Below, piece by piece: positions 388-19,318 of a stretch of DNA of 19,318 nucleotides. The position numbers and the translations under genes are program-made. The DNA comes from a virus (taxonomy: Duplodnaviria; Heunggongvirae; Uroviricota; Caudoviricetes): IMG/VR virus record IMGVR_UViG_2537561980_000013. One strand, 5' to 3'. The stretch's first letter is position 1, and every line of letters begins with the position of its first letter. A model generated the notes under the pieces. That model worked only from the letters and a program-made list of their open reading frames with translations, did not search any database and was not told where the DNA came from.

Positions 388-442
388 CGGCACGTTAAAT
401 CATATCAGGCGTAATACCACAACCCTTAAGTTAGCGCTTATG
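1..442 (-). mobile_element. IS186-like (IS4 family) insertion sequence, partial; transposase-start-proximal end
   Basis: Reverse complement of 420-442 is CATAAGCGCTAACTTAAGGGTTG, which I recall as the IS186 terminal inverted repeat. The element runs off the 5' edge of the window. Confidence 0.75.
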
Positions 443-464
443 GGATCTCTCCCCGCCAGGTCTC

Positions 465-620
465 TTACCTTTCAGATTCGTAGGCTGTGAAGACAGTGAC
501 CTCCGTCTGGCCGGTTCGGATTCGTACCTCGCAGAGGTCTTTCCTCGTTACCAGTGCCGTCACAATGACGGTTAAACAGATGACGATCAGAGCGATTAAT
601 ATCGCTTTATGCTGCTTCAT
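465..620 (-). CDS. hok: Hok/Gef-family type I toxin (51 aa, single TM helix)
   Basis: Manual translation gives MKQHKAILIALIVICLTVIVTALVTRKDLCEVRIRTGQTEVTVFTAYESER, a near match to recalled HokD/RelF and HokC/Gef. AAGGAG RBS 8 nt upstream; TAA stop at 467-465. Too short for the ORF track. Confidence 0.85.
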   Translation of the reverse strand: MKQHKAILIALIVICLTVIVTALVTRKDLCEVRIRTGQTEVTVFTAYESER

Positions 621-742
621 AGCCTGCTTCTCCTTGACCTTTTGGTCGGTAAGAGGCTAATCTACGTATGCTAAGCATAGATATGGCCTCAGATTAATGT
701 TAAGCGTCTTGCAGGACGCGTAATGTTATCTGGGGCTTTCTT

Positions 743-777
743 CTATCTGCTTTTCGGGTAATGCCTGAAGCAGATAG
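743..777. promoter_or_regulatory. Perfect 10-bp inverted repeat (CTATCTGCTT / AAGCAGATAG, 15-nt loop) in the presumed hok mRNA leader / sok region
   Basis: Read directly from the sequence. No flanking U-tract on either strand, so probably an RNA structural element or operator rather than a terminator. Confidence 0.3.
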
Positions 778-801
778 CCTCAAGCACCCGCAACGATTGT
801 A

Positions 802-1047
802 TCAATGTCTGGCTTTTTTTCTATAGAAATCACCTGGAAGGGTGAATATCCACATCAGAAGAAATGTTGCAGCAAACATGATCCCTAATGGCCAGACCGC
901 GCCAAAGAAAATCCATACTAAGATCTCCTCTGCTTGTTCTTTGCGGTCGATATCGACAAGCATTTTTCGGCTGATCATGTATACACAGAAGCCAATACAA
1001 ACATATCCTGCAAAAGCGATCGCTAACTGTAAAAAATCAGATTGCAT
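802..1047 (-). CDS. Small inner-membrane protein, two predicted TM helices, charged C-terminus (81 aa from internal ATG; track ORF extends to 1128)
   Basis: ORF track 802..1128. The ATG at 1047 has a GAGG RBS 9 nt upstream and avoids overlap with the upstream gene; the ATG at 1128 has no RBS. Hydrophobic stretches FLQLAIAFAGYVCIGFCVYMI and ILVWIFFGAVWPLGIMFAATFLLMWIFTL. Confidence 0.45.
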   Translation of the reverse strand: MQSDFLQLAIAFAGYVCIGFCVYMISRKMLVDIDRKEQAEEILVWIFFGAVWPLGIMFAATFLLMWIFTLPGDFYRKKARH

Positions 1048-1097
1048 CTCCGACCTCAAACCGAAAACGCCAGGTGACTCCAGATTAGAGCAATCTA

Positions 1098-1367
1098 TCA
1101 CCCTCTGAATCCTGCCGGTATACCCCATTGTTCGTTATCTTTATTTTTGGCTAAAACCGCATTAAGAGCTTCGTTTACCGTCATGCAATGCGGCAGATTA
1201 TCGAAGTTTGATATCCCGCCAATATCAGGAGAACGCTTGTCCTTCAGGTAAGCATATTTCCGCGCTGCCGCCTCTACTTTCTGCTTGAACTCATGTTTTT
1301 GAGCGCGTTTTTTGGATAACCGCAGATTGTCAGCCTTTGCTTTTGCCTCAGCGATCCATGAAGTCAA
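1098..1367 (-). CDS. Hypothetical basic/helical protein (89 aa)
   Basis: ORF track. Start overlaps the stop of the upstream gene by 4 nt (translational coupling). No family recognised. Confidence 0.45.
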   Translation of the reverse strand: MTSWIAEAKAKADNLRLSKKRAQKHEFKQKVEAAARKYAYLKDKRSPDIGGISNFDNLPHCMTVNEALNAVLAKNKDNEQWGIPAGFRG

Positions 1368-1942
1368 TTTTTTGAGTCTGGTCGTTCCGGCACCGCCGGA
1401 AACTGATCTTTTTGTTTTTTAACTTGTGACTTCTTATTCTTTATTGCCACGTCATCCTGACAGGGGGAGGGGGTATCATTTTGACATGGGGGTGTGGATA
1501 AAAAATTAAATAAAGCCAATGTCTTAGCGAGAACAGCTTTAACCTTGGTTGCCGCTGAAGAGATCTTTAATTTGCTTTCAATCAGCGCATTTTTGGCTTG
1601 TTGTGCGAAGGCCAAAAAGGATGGTGTAAACCGGTACAGGTTAGCGCGACGTTCACGGTGATCGCCGATAACAATCTCTACAGACAGGATTCCTTTGTTT
1701 ACAGCTTCACGGAATGCACGAACGACGGTTGATTGGCTATAACCAGTTTCTGCCGCGATCAGGCGGTGAGGCTTGTGAATGAAGTATTCACTGGTTGTTG
1801 CCGCGAGATTTGCACATTGCGACAAGATATGCCCGGCGCTACGGGATAGACCGGAGTGTGTTACAAAGCAGGCCAATTCATAGCCAGAAAAAGTAAAATC
1901 GCTCATCGTTATACAGCTCAGGAAAGTGACTTTAGCCAGCAT
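1364..1942 (-). CDS. Putative winged-HTH DNA-binding protein (regulator or replication-initiator-like); start uncertain (1942 or 1906)
   Basis: ORF track. Segment LIAAETGYSQSTVVRAFREAVNKGIL resembles a helix-turn-helix; C-terminal region is Lys/Ser/Pro-rich. Neither candidate start has a strong RBS. Confidence 0.5.
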   Translation of the reverse strand: MLAKVTFLSCITMSDFTFSGYELACFVTHSGLSRSAGHILSQCANLAATTSEYFIHKPHRLIAAETGYSQSTVVRAFREAVNKGILSVEIVIGDHRERRANLYRFTPSFLAFAQQAKNALIESKLKISSAATKVKAVLAKTLALFNFLSTPPCQNDTPSPCQDDVAIKNKKSQVKKQKDQFPAVPERPDSKN

Positions 1943-1971
1943 TACAATGCTGGTGGTTCTTACTACGTCTG

Positions 1972-2772
1972 TTAGCGCGTCGCCGCGACAGGCACCAGCA
2001 CACCAGCATCAAGCAATCGCTTCATAAGCCACTGCTGACCTTTGCCGGTTATACGAGTCGTGAAAGAAATCCTGCTTCCATTGCTTGTATCGATCACGGT
2101 TTCTTTAAGGGTGAAATACCCACGGGATATGTATTCTTGTTTGGGGACGTTCCTGCGTTCACCGGTTGCGATCAGAATTCCGTTATCACGCAACCAGGTG
2201 AAGAGATAGTTTTGGCCCAGGCCGAGCACTTTGGCATAGTTGCCGATTAGAACCCCGCTGGCGGTAGCAACGCGTTCGGCGAATTCGACTTTAGGTGCAT
2301 CCATAAGCATTTTTTGCTCCAGCCGTTGCTTTTGCTCTGCCAGGTCGGCAGCCAAACGGAGAGCTTCAGGGAGACTCTGCGGAATAGCAGGTTGTAATCT
2401 TCCAGCTCGATAGTCGATAAATGTCTGGTTTACCTTCAGCCGAAACGCGGGAGAAATCCAGCCTGCGTACTCCACAGCGAGCAATTCATGGGCAAAAGTG
2501 CCGCCGCCACGGCCTTCGAACGAAACTATGCAATTCTGCATAGTTTCTTTTTCAAGCTCTTCGATGAGCTGTTTAGCTGACAGCGTTCTTAGCCATTGAG
2601 CTGGCGCTTTATGGGCACCGAGTCCGCTCGCTCTGTGTAGAGCATTAAGGTTGTAACGGCCAGCGCGGTCGGTCGTAATTTCAACACCACAAATAACGGG
2701 CAGAGTGGTTGAAGGATCGACATTTTGATGAAGGTTTGATATATTCATATCCGCATTGAATGTTTGTTGCAT
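1972..2772 (-). CDS. Phage anti-repressor, KilA-N N-terminal domain plus KilAC/ANT C-terminal domain
   Basis: ORF track. N-terminus (YNLNALHRASG...WLRT...AVEYAGWISPAFRLKV) has the KilA-N pattern; C-terminus (LPEALRLAADLAEQK...GNYAKVLGLGQNYLFTWLRDNGIL...GKGQQWLMKRLLDAG) has the ANT pattern. GGAGA RBS upstream. Confidence 0.8.
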   Translation of the reverse strand: MQQTFNADMNISNLHQNVDPSTTLPVICGVEITTDRAGRYNLNALHRASGLGAHKAPAQWLRTLSAKQLIEELEKETMQNCIVSFEGRGGGTFAHELLAVEYAGWISPAFRLKVNQTFIDYRAGRLQPAIPQSLPEALRLAADLAEQKQRLEQKMLMDAPKVEFAERVATASGVLIGNYAKVLGLGQNYLFTWLRDNGILIATGERRNVPKQEYISRGYFTLKETVIDTSNGSRISFTTRITGKGQQWLMKRLLDAGVLVPVAATR

Positions 2773-2830
2773 TTTTTCTCCAAATTTGCATCAACCTTCA
2801 ATCACCAGCTCGAAATGGTGATTCTTTGCA

Positions 2831-2860
2831 CTTAGAAAACGAAATTTATTAGAGCAAATT
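2831..2860. promoter_or_regulatory. Conserved element copy 1 (CTTAGAAAACGAAATTTATTAGAGCAAAT), upstream of the 1972-2772 anti-repressor gene
   Basis: 15-nt core AAATTTATTAGAGCA is identical to 4510-4524, with similar flanks; read directly. Confidence 0.4.
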
Positions 2861-2903
2861 TTTCTGACTCGATCCAGATCGGGTTGGACGATCTGCTCAG
2901 AAA

Positions 2904-2934
2904 CCTGCCAGTTTGCTGGCAGGTTTTTTCTTTT
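2904..2934. terminator. GC hairpin (CCTGCCAG-tttg-CTGGCAGG) followed by TTTTTTCTTTT on the plus strand; possible bidirectional terminator
   Basis: Read directly. The strong T-tract is on the plus strand, while the adjacent stop codon (2936) belongs to a minus-strand gene. Confidence 0.5.
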
Positions 2935-2935
2935 G

Positions 2936-3979
2936 TTAACCTATTGCTACTGGTTTTAACAAACCAGCATCAAGTAGCTTGCGAGTTAACCACTGCTGGC
3001 CTTTACCCGTTAATTGGGGCGTCAGCCGTATCTGGTAGCCATTTTCATCATCCAGCACCACTTCTTTCACCGTGAAATACCCGGCGTTGATGTACTGTTG
3101 GCGCGGTACGTTTTTGCGCGCACCAAAAGCCATGAGAATGCCGTTCTGGCGCAACCATGAGAAAAGGGCGTTTTGCTTAAGTCCAACGACCTTTGCAAAG
3201 TTCCCGATCAGGATTCCATTAGCCGCTGATACCCGGTCGGCAAAATCGACTTTAGGGGCTGCGGCCACCAGCTGTTGTTCCAACTGCATTTTCTGTTCTG
3301 CCAACTCGGCAGCCAGGCGTAGAGCGTCTGGTAATGTTTGGGGGATCGATGGGGCAGGGGAGTTTGCCTGCTGCAATTCTTCCAGTTTGTCGATCAGCGA
3401 ACGGCGGACTGCTTTTGACTCGCGCGCGGCGACTCGCAGGGCTTGTTTGTAGGTCATGGTTATGACAACCATAGGCGTACCGCCACCTGGCGGCACGGTT
3501 GCACTTTTTGTGTAACCGTCCTCACCTTCTAATTCGTCGAGTATTTTTTTGATGAATTTGTTGTTCCGAACCTCTGGTTCCCCACATAACTTACGCGCTT
3601 CATTGACCATCTTTAACAGCGTCTGGCTGTCGATTGTGTCTCCAGTGTTGGAGATAACATTCACAGCTGGTGATGGCGTAGCTGAAGCAACAGATGCTGG
3701 TTTTTTAACATTCAAATTATTACTGGTCATTCTATGTGCCTCCTTTCTCATTTCTGCTGCCACCGTTGCGTAACGTAGACGTCCTTGTTCAATCAAATAA
3801 TCCCTGATCTCGGCTATCAGTAGCCTGTTGATCACAGCCTTATCTGTTCGGGTATAAAAACGTCTGGTTATCATGAAATAGTTGGCAATTGCGCCGGGGA
3901 TCTCCCGTGTCGGCATACAGGCAGTATGCAGGGCGATCGCTTCGGCTATGTCATTACGGGTGACGAGAGGTTTTTTCAT
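2936..3979 (-). CDS. Phage anti-repressor paralog with KilAC/ANT C-terminal domain and a distinct N-terminal region
   Basis: ORF track. C-terminal ~130 aa closely parallel those of the 1972-2772 product (LPDALRLAAELAEQK...GNFAKVVGLKQNALFSWLRQNGIL...GKGQQWLTRKLLDAG). AGGGGG RBS upstream. Confidence 0.75.
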   Translation of the reverse strand: MKKPLVTRNDIAEAIALHTACMPTREIPGAIANYFMITRRFYTRTDKAVINRLLIAEIRDYLIEQGRLRYATVAAEMRKEAHRMTSNNLNVKKPASVASATPSPAVNVISNTGDTIDSQTLLKMVNEARKLCGEPEVRNNKFIKKILDELEGEDGYTKSATVPPGGGTPMVVITMTYKQALRVAARESKAVRRSLIDKLEELQQANSPAPSIPQTLPDALRLAAELAEQKMQLEQQLVAAAPKVDFADRVSAANGILIGNFAKVVGLKQNALFSWLRQNGILMAFGARKNVPRQQYINAGYFTVKEVVLDDENGYQIRLTPQLTGKGQQWLTRKLLDAGLLKPVAIG

Positions 3980-4197
3980 AAAACCCCCTGAACGTCGGCA
4001 GAGAAGGGGAGGTTCCAGTAACTAAGTGAATTGCGCGAGTTAGTTGAAAAACGGGCAGTAAAAATGCAGGGGCCATCAGGCAATTGAGAGCGTGCTTCGT
4101 CTTCTGTTGCTGCGATGACGAAGTGATAGTGGTGTTTTTTGCAGGAATAGAAACGCCAGATGAATTCTTGGCGTGCGCAAGGATTGGCATTAACCAT
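3976..4197 (-). CDS. Small hypothetical protein (73 aa), translationally coupled to the downstream anti-repressor
   Basis: ORF track. GAGG RBS 8-9 nt upstream of the ATG at 4197; stop overlaps the next start by 4 nt. Preferred over the alternative-frame ORF 3954..4190. Confidence 0.5.
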   Translation of the reverse strand: MVNANPCARQEFIWRFYSCKKHHYHFVIAATEDEARSQLPDGPCIFTARFSTNSRNSLSYWNLPFSADVQGVL

Positions 4198-4496
4198 AGT
4201 TACGGCCTCGTAAGTTGATAAACAACCTGCGACCCGCTGCTAAACAGGTGGCAGGACGTGACGGGGTTAGCAGACTGGCACTTACGAAACCAGCAGGCCG
4301 AAGCCTCCCCATCACGCCCCACCATAATTCGGGCGTAACGTGGTTTACGGACACAAAAATACCGCAATATCGGAAATCTGCGGTTGTCCGCGTAAGTATT
4401 CAGGCTGCTAAACCCGGTCGCAGAATTTGCTACGACGGCGAAACTATAAGCCTGAACGATTAAAAGGTCAATATGATGCAAAAAGATAGCATTCGC

Positions 4497-4528
4497 GACT
4501 TAAAAATACAAATTTATTAGAGCAGATT
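4497..4528. promoter_or_regulatory. Conserved element copy 2 (CTTAAAAATACAAATTTATTAGAGCAGAT) at the head of the minus-strand anti-repressor operon
   Basis: Same 15-nt core as 2842-2856. A possible minus-strand -35 (TTGCAC, revcomp of 4535-4540) lies just outside it. Confidence 0.4.
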
Positions 4529-4558
4529 AGTGTCGTGCAATAGATATATTATTTGTGA

Positions 4559-4667
4559 TGAAAAATAATGCAGATGGATATTGTAACTTTAAGATGGATA
4601 TCAATAGTCGATACATAAATTAAGTTAGCAATAAACTATTAACTTAAGAAATAATGCAGATGGTGAA
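4559..4667. repeat. Direct repeats AAATAATGCAGATGG (4563-4577 and 4649-4663) in the AT-rich divergent intergenic region
   Basis: Read directly; TAAGTTAG also occurs twice (4621-4628, 4697-4704). Candidate operator sites. Confidence 0.4.
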
Positions 4668-4807
4668 CTTGTCTCTGACTTTTCAGCTATACACAATAAG
4701 TTAGGGATAGCTTATAAAAAGTTGATTAATTGATATAAGTCAATGGGAGTATTCTTGTTTACTTTCCGTTCTTGTGGTAACTTCTCGCCGGTTTTTGTTT
4801 TTCTGGG

Positions 4808-5329
4808 ATGATTCTTATGTCTAAAAAGTATACTTTATGCGCTCTTGTTGTATCTGCAATTCTTCTTTCTGGGTGTCAATCTAGCGGTGCTGATTATGCT
4901 GCCGATGTTTATGATACCGCTCAATTGAATTCGAAGCAGGAAACAAAGACAGTCAATATTATCTCTGTGCTTCCAGCTAAAGTGAAAGTTGATAATAAAG
5001 CTAATAAAGAAGCGGCACAGACATTTGGTGCGGTACTGGGAGCTGTTGCTGGGGGCGTTGCCGGTTATAATGTTAAAGGCACATCGACACTGGGTGCTGT
5101 AGCTGGCGGTACTGGTGGTGCGGCTCTTGGTGCAGCGGCTGGTTCTTTGGTTAGTGATAAAACAATTGTTGAAGGTGTTTCACTGACTTATAAAGAAGGA
5201 ACTAAGGTGTTCACTTCAACTCAAGTTGGTAAAGCATGCCAGTTTACAACGGGGCTTGCTGTGCTTATTTCAACTAAAGATAATGAAACTCGAATTCAGC
5301 CAAATGCTACTTGTCCAGAAAAGAAATAA
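4808..5329 (+). CDS. SlyB/PCP-like glycine-zipper outer-membrane lipoprotein (start 4808 or 4817)
   Basis: ORF track. Signal peptide with lipobox LLSGC; two glycine-zipper stretches (GAVLGAVAGGVAGY, GAVAGGTGGAALGAAAGS); overall architecture parallels recalled SlyB. AT-rich codon usage. Confidence 0.8.
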   Translation: MILMSKKYTLCALVVSAILLSGCQSSGADYAADVYDTAQLNSKQETKTVNIISVLPAKVKVDNKANKEAAQTFGAVLGAVAGGVAGYNVKGTSTLGAVAGGTGGAALGAAAGSLVSDKTIVEGVSLTYKEGTKVFTSTQVGKACQFTTGLAVLISTKDNETRIQPNATCPEKK

Positions 5330-5332
5330 TTT

Positions 5333-5872
5333 ATGAATAAAATTATTTTATTTCTAATCTTTTCTACGTTTAGTGTAGGCACTGCCTTGGCTAACTCGTT
5401 GCAAAGTCAAATTGCTGCTATTGCTCAAGCGGAAAATGAAGGGCGAGCTAAAGAGCAGCAAGCTGAGGATGCCAGAAAAGAACTTATTCGCCAACAAGCA
5501 CAAGCTGAACGTATTAGAAGAGAAAAAGCAGCATCTGCCGCTGCTGCACGCGAAAAACAGCGTGTTGCTGCAGAAAATGAACGTAGAGCGAAACGAGAAG
5601 CCGAGCTAGCAAATGACAAGAAGCGAGATCAAGCTTATGAGGATGAGCTTCGCAAGCTGCAACTCGAAAGCATGAAACTCGAACTGCAAGCAAAAGCGGC
5701 TCGTGTCCAGCGAGAAAACGATTTTATAGAGCAGGAGTTGAAGGAGAGAGCAGCTAAGACAGATGTAATTCAGTCTGAGGCTGATGCAAATAGAAATATT
5801 TCTACAGGAAGTAAAGATTTACTGCAAAGCGAAGGAAAAGCTAGAGAGAAGAAAGCTAGCAGTTGGTGGTAG
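5333..5872 (+). CDS. Secreted (signal-peptide) Ala/Glu/Arg/Lys-rich coiled-coil protein
   Basis: ORF track. N-terminal signal peptide (…FSVGTALA|NS), then ~150 aa of charged heptad-like sequence. Starts 3 nt after the lipoprotein stop (operon). Confidence 0.7.
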   Translation: MNKIILFLIFSTFSVGTALANSLQSQIAAIAQAENEGRAKEQQAEDARKELIRQQAQAERIRREKAASAAAAREKQRVAAENERRAKREAELANDKKRDQAYEDELRKLQLESMKLELQAKAARVQRENDFIEQELKERAAKTDVIQSEADANRNISTGSKDLLQSEGKAREKKASSWW

Positions 5873-18841: not shown

Positions 18842-19318
18842 ATGCGCTCACCAAAAGTTAAATTCTTAACCATCTTCACGTTTTGTATATTTATTACAAA
18901 AATGTCTTTCGCCAGCAACTCTTGCTCTAATGAATCAGGAACAATGTTCAGAATCGAACCAAATTTAATTAAAGCTATCGCTCTTGTTGAAAGCAATCTA
19001 AAAAAGGATAGCATAGGCAAGAACAGAGATAAGAATAACAACATAAAGAGTTTAGATTATTGGTTAATGCAGATAAACCAGATGCATATTCCCCTGTTAA
19101 AAAAACGTGGAATAATAAAAGATGAACGAGATTTGTTAGATAACCCTTGTCTGAACATTAAAATAGGAACCGAGATTTTATATAACCATTTTTCACGTTG
19201 TGGAGTAACGTGGCAATGCCTGGGGACTTATAATGCGGGTTTTGCAATGGATAACCAAAAAAAGAGACAGCAATATGCCCCAAAATATATATTGTATATA
19301 CCAGGCTTAATGAACTAG
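18842..19318 (+). CDS. IagB/IpgF/EtgA-family specialised lytic transglycosylase with signal peptide (158 aa)
   Basis: ORF track. Signal peptide; family-1 lytic transglycosylase motifs ALVES (catalytic Glu), WLMQIN, GTYNAGF. Very AT-rich coding sequence; stop at 19316-19318. Confidence 0.8.
   Translation: MRSPKVKFLTIFTFCIFITKMSFASNSCSNESGTMFRIEPNLIKAIALVESNLKKDSIGKNRDKNNNIKSLDYWLMQINQMHIPLLKKRGIIKDERDLLDNPCLNIKIGTEILYNHFSRCGVTWQCLGTYNAGFAMDNQKKRQQYAPKYILYIPGLMN

What the first reader, a model, noticed from the sequence alone, without database searches (positions are those of the whole stretch)
2831..4528. Conserved ~29-bp element upstream of both anti-repressor units, plus a plus-strand terminator inside the minus-strand operon
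CTTAGAAAACGAAATTTATTAGAGCAAAT (2831-2860) and CTTAAAAATACAAATTTATTAGAGCAGAT (4497-4528) share an identical 15-nt core and similar flanks, each sitting 5' of an anti-repressor transcription unit. That pattern suggests a shared operator or promoter, which would give coordinated repression of both units. Between the two anti-repressor genes there is also a hairpin followed by a clean T-tract on the plus strand (2904-2934), antisense to the coding strand. This geometry would fit a short plus-strand antisense RNA analogous to sar in the P22 immI region.
Basis: partly seen in the sequence, partly recalled or inferred. Interest (0 to 1): 0.5.

Follow-up and report, generated by a model that had tools for sequence, protein, structure and literature searches.

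The report
Known phage P1 repressor operators, antisense RNA
The repeated 29-bp element and the plus-strand terminator are well-studied control sites of a P1/P7-type phage-plasmid: two binding sites for the main phage repressor C1, and the end of a known antisense RNA that restrains the lytic replication genes. The finding is real but ordinary.

Summary
The window is a P1/P7-like phage-plasmid of E. coli, 96-98% identical to P1 and P7 over this region. Both observations are real.

- **The two 29-bp elements.** They hold the 17-bp asymmetric operators of the P1 C1 repressor (consensus ATTGCTCTAATAAATTT). Window 2842-2858(-) is OrepL/Op53, which overlaps the -10 of the kilA-repL promoter P53. 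Window 4510-4526(-) is Oc4/Op51, which overlaps the -35 of P51a, a promoter of the c4-icd-ant1/2 (immI) operon. The similar flanks are general: 17 annotated P7 operators share a T-rich...TAAG flank on one side.
- **The plus-strand terminator (2899-2934).** It ends the known P53as/PaskilA antisense RNA. Its promoter lies at 2717-2745 inside the start of kilA, the mapped start site is 2753, and the transcript is about 180 nt. All of this is annotated in the P1 GenBank record and base-identical here.
Shared operator and coordinated repression are correct. An antisense RNA does end at this terminator, but it opposes kilA-repL and P53, not ant.
- **The true functional counterpart of P22 sar.** This is the C4 RNA (Rfam match 4244-4329(-); 4247-4323 by homology with the P1 c4 annotation), encoded upstream in the same operon.

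Novelty: already known. Side observations: a C4 specificity different from both P1 and P7, a repL frameshift, and mosaic junctions at C1 operators.

The parts
2842..2858 (-). C1 repressor operator OrepL (former Op53), TTTGCTCTAATAAATTT, 16/17 to consensus
   Evidence: motif; P1/P7 annotation; identical sequence and mapping
2848..2876 (-). sigma-70 promoter PkilA (former P53): -35 TGGATC at 2871-2876, -10 TCTAAT at 2848-2853, the latter inside the operator
2871..2893 (.). three GATC Dam sites in the kilA regulatory region (2871-2874, 2877-2880, 2890-2893)
2717..2745 (+). promoter PaskilA (former P53as): TCGACA, 17-nt spacer, TG-extended TATATT, inside the first codons of kilA
   Evidence: independent scan, 10/12 with TG; annotated in P1, identical
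2753..2934 (+). antisense RNA of about 180 nt. It is complementary to kilA codons 1-7, the kilA leader, Op53 and P53.
   Evidence: start site annotated in P1 and mapped to 2753; fold -58.7 kcal/mol, z -5.4; promoter-to-terminator distance invariant in 17 loci
2899..2934 (+). intrinsic terminator of the antisense RNA: 13-bp stem at 2899-2928, with a U6CU4 tract running from inside the 3' arm of the stem to about 2934
1972..2772 (-). kilA (266 aa; KilA-N plus ANT/KilA-C domains)
1098..1942 (-). repL, lytic replication initiator. In this window it is frameshifted by a 1-nt deletion in a T7 run at about 1414.
2936..3979 (-). ant1 (347 aa). ant2 is the in-frame internal start, 2936-3730.
3976..4197 (-). 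icd (73 aa), overlaps the ant1 start
4247..4323 (-). C4 antisense RNA, 77 nt processed form by homology (Rfam match 4244-4329)
   Evidence: (RF01695, 70.8 bits against a gathering score of 45)
4208..4243 (-). C4 target sites b2 (4208-4214, next to the icd ribosome-binding site) and a2 (4237-4243)
4390..4411 (-). C4 target sites b1 (4390-4397) and a1 (4405-4411), within Rfam c4-a1b1 (4397-4449)
4443..4471 (-). promoter P1c4 (former P51b), TTGACC-17-TATAGT, outside the operator
   Evidence: (scan, 10/12)
4483..4512 (-). promoter P2c4 (former P51a). Its -35 (4506-4512) overlaps Op51.
4510..4526 (-). C1 repressor operator Oc4 (former Op51), TCTGCTCTAATAAATTT, 15/17 to consensus, identical to the P7 version

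Best explanation
The window carries the immI operon (c4-icd-ant1/2) and the lytic replicon (kilA-repL) of a P1/P7-type phage-plasmid, with their published control elements intact. The core of each 29-bp element is a 17-bp asymmetric operator for the primary phage repressor C1. At 2842-2858 (OrepL/Op53) the operator covers the -10 hexamer and start region of promoter P53. Bound C1 therefore blocks RNA polymerase and keeps kilA-repL, and with it lytic replication, silent in the prophage. At 4510-4526 (Oc4/Op51) the operator covers the -35 of P51a and shuts the stronger entry into the immI operon. The downstream promoter P51b lies outside the operator. It can therefore keep supplying C4 RNA, which pairs with sites a2/b2 at the icd ribosome-binding site and so prevents Ant synthesis. 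The plus-strand terminator ends a second, separate antisense RNA. Promoter P53as/PaskilA (2717-2745) sits inside the first codons of kilA and fires towards P53. Its transcript of about 180 nt (2753 to about 2934) runs across the kilA ribosome-binding site, the leader, Op53 and P53, and stops at the hairpin and U tract just before the end of ant. It lowers kilA-repL expression in two possible ways: convergent-promoter interference with P53, and pairing with the first roughly 90 nt of the P53 mRNA. This adds a C1-independent brake on the lytic replicon. Shown here: sequence identity of every element with the annotated P1/P7 elements, the motif matches, the promoter and terminator predictions, and the Rfam C4 match. 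Inferred from P1 work rather than tested here: C1 binding, constitutive P53as activity, and the effect on repL.
For: - **Identity of the element.** The region is 95.9-98.1% identical to P1, P7 and many P1-like phages and plasmids.
- **P1 annotation.** The P1 record AF234172 annotates OrepL/Op53, PkilA/P53, PaskilA/P53as, 'transcription start site of RNA antisense to 5' region of kilA', Oc4/Op51, P51a, P51b, c4 and the a/b sites. P7 annotates Op(rep) and Op(c4).
- **Alignment.** Window 2700-2960 differs from P1 at one base plus one T in the terminator tail. All features map base-for-base.
- **Operator matches.** 16/17 and 15/17 to ATTGCTCTAATAAATTT, against 0.07 expected by chance. The consensus and '22 operators' are quoted in PMC8546580.
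- **Published repression.** PMC9948254 states that Op53 overlaps P53 and that C1 binding inhibits kilA-repL. [quoted passage not shown] PMC8198154 states that C1 represses the c4-icd-ant operon and that full repression needs C4.
- **Independent scans.** The promoter scan finds P53as (+2717-2745, 10/12, TG-extended) and P51b. The terminator scan ranks the 2899-2928 hairpin first.
- **Transcript length.** 2753 to 2934 is 182 nt. This matches the 180-base transcript I recall from the abstract of the 1995 paper (from memory).
- **Conservation.** The P53as-to-terminator distance is 185-186 nt in all 17 loci examined. 510 plasmid records carry the 261-bp region at 95% identity or more.
- **C4.** Rfam matches C4 (70.8 bits) and c4-a1b1 (55.3 bits).
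Against: Nothing in the sequence contradicts this. The limits are as follows.
- The c1 gene is outside the 19-kb window, so the cognate repressor is assumed from the complete relatives.
- No binding or transcript data exist for this particular element.
- The primary papers (Heinrich et al. 1995; Lobocka et al. 2004) are not in the held library. The 180-nt length, the constitutive activity and the promoter-down phenotype therefore rest on my memory of the abstract plus the GenBank annotation.
- The terminator itself is not annotated in the P1 record. Its assignment as the 3' end of the antisense RNA is an inference from position and length.
- repL is frameshifted in this window, so the controlled replicon may be non-functional here.
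Confidence: 0.93

Rival explanations
1. One reading: the plus-strand RNA ending at 2934 is a sar-like antisense RNA that represses the anti-repressor gene ant by pairing with its mRNA, as in the P22 immI region.
For: The geometry looks similar: a plus-strand hairpin and T tract inside a minus-strand cluster next to ant. An antisense promoter exists upstream.
Against: The transcript runs from 2753 to about 2934 and the ant1 stop codon is at 2936-2938. It therefore overlaps no ant coding or ribosome-binding sequence (ant1 start 3979, ant2 start 3730). It is complementary to kilA and P53 instead. Ant already has its own antisense regulator, C4, with target sites at the icd ribosome-binding site. 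No Rfam family other than a sub-threshold ctRNA hit on the terminator hairpin matches 2600-3050.
Confidence: 0.03
2. The hairpin is mainly, or also, the terminator of the minus-strand immI operon. On this view it is a bidirectional terminator that insulates c4-icd-ant from kilA-repL.
For: It lies 8 nt after the ant stop codon. The stem also forms on the minus strand, with dG -18.1 and z -4.2. The A-rich run before it on the minus strand is the usual signature of two-way terminators.
Against: On the minus strand the stem is followed by CUGAGCAGAUCG. The only U residues (UUU) are paired in the stem, and the terminator scan reports the site on the plus strand only. In P1vir RNA-seq, ant1 and the downstream kilA are together the most highly expressed phage genes (PMC8201110). 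That fits read-through but does not prove it.
Confidence: 0.15
3. The 29-bp similarity is a chance repeat of AT-rich sequence with no shared function.
For: Two other exact 15-mer direct repeats occur in the same 19-kb window. The 15-mer also occurs in many unrelated viral contigs of a very large collection.
Against: Both copies match a defined operator consensus. They are annotated, experimentally named operators in P1 and P7. They keep the 1662-1670 bp spacing in P1-like contigs. They are 2 of 17 annotated P7 operators that share the same core and flank.
Confidence: 0.01

Closest known systems
Phage P1/P7 C1 repressor operators Op53 (OrepL) and Op51 (Oc4)
   Same: Same 17-bp asymmetric sequence: Op53 is identical to P1 and P7, and Op51 is identical to P7. 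Same position relative to P53 and P51a, same flanking genes, same spacing.
   Different: Nothing of substance. Op51 differs from the P1 version in its two outermost bases (TCTGC... against AATGC...). Homology to P1 stops right there, because the window carries the P7-type upf50.5/upf50.0 genes instead of simABC.
P1 P53as / PaskilA antisense RNA of the lytic replicon (Heinrich et al. 1995, NAR 23:1468)
   Same: Identical promoter, start site and transcribed sequence. Terminator at the expected distance of about 180 nt.
   Different: The T tract is one T shorter than in P1/P7 (T6CT4 against T7CT4), a variant shared with about half of the P1-like loci. The repL gene it ultimately controls is frameshifted in this window.
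P1/P7 C4 antisense RNA (Rfam RF01695) with a/b target sites
   Same: Same operon position, same fold and same processing-product coordinates by homology. The a' loop is of P7 type.
   Different: The b' loop is UCGUAAGU, with matching b1/b2 targets ACUUACG. This differs from both P1 (UCACUAAC) and P7 (UCACAAUC), so the predicted immI specificity differs from both.
P22 immI sar RNA
   Same: A small RNA in an anti-repressor immunity region that works by base pairing. The functional analogue of sar here is C4, not the plus-strand RNA.
   Different: From established knowledge, sar is transcribed from the strand opposite to ant and covers the ant ribosome-binding site. Here the opposite-strand RNA covers kilA and P53. 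The ant regulator C4 is encoded on the same strand as its targets and acts at icd. No sequence or Rfam similarity to sar was found.

Membership tests
P1-type C1 repressor operator | Match to the 17-bp asymmetric consensus ATTGCTCTAATAAATTT | tested here: met
   16/17 at 2842-2858(-) and 15/17 at 4510-4526(-); 0.07 matches expected by chance; consensus as quoted in PMC8546580
P1-type C1 repressor operator | Overlap with a sigma-70 promoter of a C1-controlled operon | tested here: met
   Op53 contains the P53 -10 hexamer TCTAAT. Op51 overlaps the P51a -35.
P1-type C1 repressor operator | Orthologous position to named operators of P1/P7 | tested here: met
   Alignments with AF234172 and AF503408
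P1-type C1 repressor operator | Cognate c1 repressor gene in the same element, and C1 binding | not testable with these tools
   c1 (immC) lies outside the 19-kb window. Binding needs a footprint or EMSA.
P53as / PaskilA antisense RNA | Promoter within the 5' end of kilA, firing opposite to P53 | tested here: met
   +2717-2745 TCGACA-17-TG-TATATT, identical to the annotated PaskilA
P53as / PaskilA antisense RNA | Transcript of about 180 nt ending at an intrinsic terminator | tested here: met
   Start site 2753 to the U tract at about 2934 gives 182 nt. Hairpin dG -19.9. The 180-nt figure is from my memory of the 1995 abstract.
P53as / PaskilA antisense RNA | C1-independent transcription and a negative effect on repL expression | not testable with these tools
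   Needs reporter fusions or a promoter-down mutant
C4 antisense RNA (RF01695) | Covariance-model score above the gathering threshold | tested here: met
   70.8 bits against 45 at 4244-4329(-); c4-a1b1 55.3 bits against 46.7
C4 antisense RNA (RF01695) | Loops a'/b' complementary to a1/b1 and a2/b2, with b2 at the icd ribosome-binding site | tested here: met
   b' UCGUAAGU against b1/b2 ACUUACG; a' CUGCUAA against TTAGCAG
P22 sar-type antisense RNA | Transcribed opposite to ant and complementary to the ant ribosome-binding site | tested here: not met
   The plus-strand RNA ends at about 2934, before the ant stop codon at 2936. It overlaps kilA and P53 only.
P22 sar-type antisense RNA | Sequence or structure similarity to sar | tested here: not met
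   No such Rfam hit at the gathering or E<=1 thresholds

The most novel reading that the evidence does not exclude
The conserved unit recognised at C1-controlled promoters may be longer than the textbook 17 bp. Across 17 annotated P7 operators, the 11-12 bp on the AAATTT side carry a T-rich...TAAG motif at 0.3-1.1 bit per position, while the other flank is essentially random. If the flank is a functional part of the site, and if this has not been described, the operator definition would need extending. Possible roles are a contact or bend site for C1 or the Lxc co-repressor, or a shared initial-transcribed-region signal. I could not check the P1 genome paper's operator logo.
Probability: 0.2. 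Interest if true: 0.3.

Novelty: already known. Interest (0 to 1): 0.1.

Why it matters
It matters little as a discovery. The operators, promoters and both antisense RNAs were mapped in P1 and P7 between 1987 and 1995, and they are annotated in the reference genomes. The useful outcome is a correct annotation of this window:
- the immI operon and lytic replicon of a P1/P7 mosaic phage-plasmid;
- the cue that its immI (C4) specificity is neither P1 nor P7;
- the cue that its repL reading frame is broken.

These points bear on whether this element is heteroimmune to P1 and P7 and whether it can still replicate lytically.

Tried and rejected
- **Primary papers.** Reading Lobocka et al. 2004 (PMC523184) and Heinrich et al. 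1995 (PMC306884, DOI) failed because they are not held. I relied on GenBank annotation and on later open papers that cite them.
- **15-mer scan.** Most returned loci have a single match that I did not classify; some of them proved P1-like. The loci with two matches keep the 1662-1670 bp spacing, but the scan adds little as a specificity test.
- **Search for diverged homologues.** The aim was to test covariation in the antisense RNA and the terminator. Every hit in phages and plasmids is at least 95% identical, so no covariation test is possible.
- **Rfam on 2600-3050 at E<=1.** Only a sub-threshold ctRNA_p42d hit on the terminator hairpin (21 bits against a gathering score of 50). There is no curated family for this RNA.
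- **Chance repeat.** Considered and rejected.
- **sar-type control of ant.** Considered and rejected on coordinates.
- **Bidirectional terminator.** Kept only as a minor possibility, because the minus strand lacks a U tract.
Full report
**What the window is**

Megablast of 1900-4800 against phage records gives full-length matches at 96-98% identity to P1-like phages. These include P7 (AF503408) and P1 itself (AF234172, 95.9% over the first 90% of the query). The whole 19.3-kb window is collinear with P1/P7 from repL through kilA, ant, icd, c4, tail-tube genes, sit, baseplate and tail-fibre genes. Hundreds of E. coli phage-plasmids carry the same DNA. The nearest is pSvP1_F, NZ_MN510446, essentially identical over 420-5400.

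The minus-strand genes near the finding are:
- kilA, 1972-2772, 266 aa, with KilA-N and ANT domains;
- ant1, 2936-3979, 347 aa, with an ANT domain (ant2 is the in-frame internal start);
- icd, 3976-4197, 73 aa.

**Check of the observation**

They share the exact 15-mer AAATTTATTAGAGCA and 24 of 29 positions. The repeat finder reports 31 nt at 84% identity with a spacing of 1668.

A 15-mer repeat is not in itself exceptional in this window, because two other exact 15-mer repeats exist. What makes this one significant is the extended similarity, the position and the homology described below.

The hairpin and T tract are real. On the plus strand there is a 13-bp stem at 2899-2928 with dG -19.9 kcal/mol (z -5.5), followed by UUUUCUUUUG. 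It is the top terminator-like site in the region.

**What the 29-bp elements are**

The reverse complements read TTTGCTCTAATAAATTT (2842-2858) and TCTGCTCTAATAAATTT (4510-4526). These are 16/17 and 15/17 matches to the asymmetric 17-bp operator consensus of the P1 C1 repressor, ATTGCTCTAATAAATTT. The consensus and the count of 22 operators in P1 are quoted in PMC8546580.

The P1 record annotates, at the orthologous positions:
- 'monovalent C1-controlled operator OrepL; corresponds to former Op53; controls expression of kilA and repL';
- 'Oc4; corresponds to former Op51; controls expression of c4'.

P7 annotates Op(rep) and Op(c4) at the same places. Alignments show that Op53 and its surroundings are identical in window, P1 and P7, and that Op51 is identical to the P7 version.

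Mapping the annotated promoters onto the window gives the following:
- P53: -35 TGGATC at 2871-2876 and -10 TCTAAT at 2848-2853, so the -10 lies inside Op53.
- P51a: its -35 at 4506-4512 overlaps Op51.
- P51b: 4443-4471, TTGACC-17-TATAGT, also found by the independent scan. It lies 39 bp clear of the operator.

Later open papers state that C1 binding to Op53 inhibits P53 (PMC9948254). They also state that C1 represses the c4-icd-ant operon, with C4 RNA needed for full repression (PMC8198154). The repressor is C1.

**Why the flanks are similar**

I extracted the 17 C1 operators annotated in the first 100 kb of P7, oriented them on the consensus and measured column conservation.
- The flank on the ATTGC side is random, at about 0.1 bit per position.
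- The 11-12 bp after AAATTT carry a T-rich tract ending in TAAG, at 0.3-1.1 bit per position. This is comparable to the weaker half of the operator itself.

Op(c4) reads gtatttttaag and Op(rep) reads cgttttctaag. Op(26), Op(hdm), Op(dam), Op(shtA) and Op(hea) look alike. The 29-bp similarity is thus a general property of these sites, not something special to these two. I could not check whether this extension has been described.

**What the plus-strand terminator belongs to**

The P1 record annotates 'sigma 70 promoter PaskilA; corresponds to former P53as' and 'transcription start site of RNA antisense to 5' region of kilA'. These map to window 2717-2745 and 2753, with identical sequence. The promoter scan found the same site independently: TCGACA, a 17-nt spacer, and a TG-extended TATATT, matching 10 of 12 positions.

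From 2753 to the end of the U tract at about 2934 is 182 nt. This fits the 180-base constitutive transcript that I recall from the abstract of Heinrich et al. 1995. [quoted passage not shown] The length and the phenotypes are from memory, because the paper is not held.

The RNA is strongly structured, at -58.7 kcal/mol and z -5.4. It is complementary to kilA codons 1-7, the ribosome-binding site, the leader of about 69 nt, Op53 and P53. In all 17 P1-like loci I had in hand, the promoter and terminator are both present 185-186 nt apart. The 261-bp region is at least 95% identical in 510 plasmid records.

On the minus strand the hairpin forms (dG -18.1) but has no U tract after it. It is therefore essentially a one-way terminator. 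The immI operon has no clean intrinsic terminator of its own, which leaves read-through into kilA possible. This last point is inference.

**Mechanism**

In the prophage, C1 sits on Op53 and Op51. P53 is blocked at its -10, so kilA and repL are silent. P51a is blocked at its -35. P51b, outside the operator, can continue to produce the leader that is processed to C4 RNA.

C4 pairs through loops a' and b' with sites a2/b2 at the icd ribosome-binding site. This stops icd translation and, through coupling, ant expression. That mechanism comes from P1 work (Citron and Schuster 1990, 1992, cited). The premature-termination step is from memory.

P53as fires head-on into P53 from 88 bp away. Its product can also pair with the 5' end of the P53 mRNA, which adds a repressor-independent damping of the lytic replicon.

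Shown here: the sequence identity, the motifs and the predicted signals. Inferred from P1 work: binding, constitutive activity and regulatory effect.

**Comparison with P22 sar**

It is attached to the wrong RNA, however. The plus-strand RNA ends 2 nt before the ant stop codon and never overlaps ant.

The functional counterpart of sar is C4. Rfam matches RF01695 at 70.8 bits, 4244-4329(-), and its a1/b1 element at 55.3 bits. C4 is encoded on the same strand as its targets. No Rfam family matches the plus-strand RNA. The only hit is a sub-threshold ctRNA match on the terminator hairpin.

**Side observations**

1. C4 specificity. The window's b' loop is UCGUAAGU, with both targets changed to ACUUACG. 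P1 has UCACUAAC/GUUAGUG and P7 has UCACAAUC/GAUUGUG. The a' loop is of P7 type. Among the 18 sequences examined (the window, P1, P7 and P1-like loci), there are five b types and two a types in eight combinations. In each the b2 target shown is complementary to the b' loop. This element is therefore predicted to have an immI specificity different from both P1 and P7.
2. repL frameshift. repL has a 1-nt deletion in a T7 run at about 1414, which truncates RepL to 192 aa. The gene is intact in P1, P7 and pSvP1_F. This could be a homopolymer sequencing error.
3. Mosaic junctions. Homology to P1/P7 on the left ends inside the third operator, Orlf/Op(rap). The ATTGCTCTAAT half is kept at 1084-1094 and the rest is replaced. 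A hok/sok module lies beyond it. Homology to P1 on the right ends exactly after the 15-nt core of Op51, where P7-type upf50.5/upf50.0 genes replace simABC. The conserved operators thus coincide with mosaic junctions.

**Verdict**

Both observations are confirmed. The operator interpretation is right, and the antisense-RNA idea is right in form but wrong in target. Everything is already known from P1 and P7, so interest is low.

Noticed in passing
window 4208-4214, 4247-4323, 4390-4397 (minus strand): The C4 RNA loop b' (UCGUAAGU) and both targets b1/b2 (ACUUACG) differ from P1 and from P7 in a mutually compensating way, while a' is of P7 type. Among the 18 sequences examined (the window, P1, P7 and P1-like loci) there are 5 b types and 2 a types in 8 combinations, each with a b2 target complementary to its b' loop. 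This predicts an immI specificity distinct from P1 and P7.
   Followed up: partly
window 2831-2841 and 4499-4509; P7 loci L123/L124 (17 annotated operators): C1 operators share a conserved flank (T-rich tract ending in TAAG, 0.3-1.1 bit per position over about 12 bp) on the AAATTT side only. The conserved unit is therefore about 29 bp rather than 17 bp.
   Followed up: partly
window 1098-1942 (minus strand), indel at about 1414: repL is split into two frames by a 1-nt deletion in a T7 homopolymer (T6 here), giving RepL of 192 aa instead of 281 aa. The nearest plasmid, pSvP1_F, as well as P1 and P7, have the intact gene. This is either a sequencing error or a defective lytic replicon.
   Followed up: partly
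window 1077-1094 and 4510-4526: Mosaic junctions coincide with C1 operators. Homology to P1/P7 starts inside Orlf/Op(rap), where only ATTGCTCTAAT at 1084-1094 is retained. Homology to P1 ends right after the 15-nt core of Op51, beyond which the window is P7-like (upf50.5/upf50.0 instead of simABC).
   Followed up: partly
window 615-789 (minus strand): A hok/sok type I toxin-antitoxin module (Rfam sok, 114.9 bits) sits where P1 and P7 have rlfA/rapA. Relatives carry an IS421 transposase next to it.
   Followed up: no
window 4563-4577 and 4649-4663: Exact 15-nt direct repeat AAATAATGCAGATGG, 86 bp apart, in the AT-rich intergenic region upstream of the lipoprotein gene at 4808-5329. It may be a regulatory site of the P7-type upf50.5 unit.
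   Followed up: no
window 18921-18937 (+): CTTGCTCTAATGAATCA matches the C1 operator consensus at 13/17, as well as some annotated operators do. It lies in the part of the window (beyond about 16.6 kb) that is not P7-like.
   Followed up: no
window 8221-8432 and 8518-8729: A 212-nt direct repeat (84% identity, spacing 297) just upstream of the sit start (8817). Separately, the alignment to P7 breaks at window 8518/8519, and the sit ORF here is 996 aa against 1130 aa in P7.
   Followed up: no
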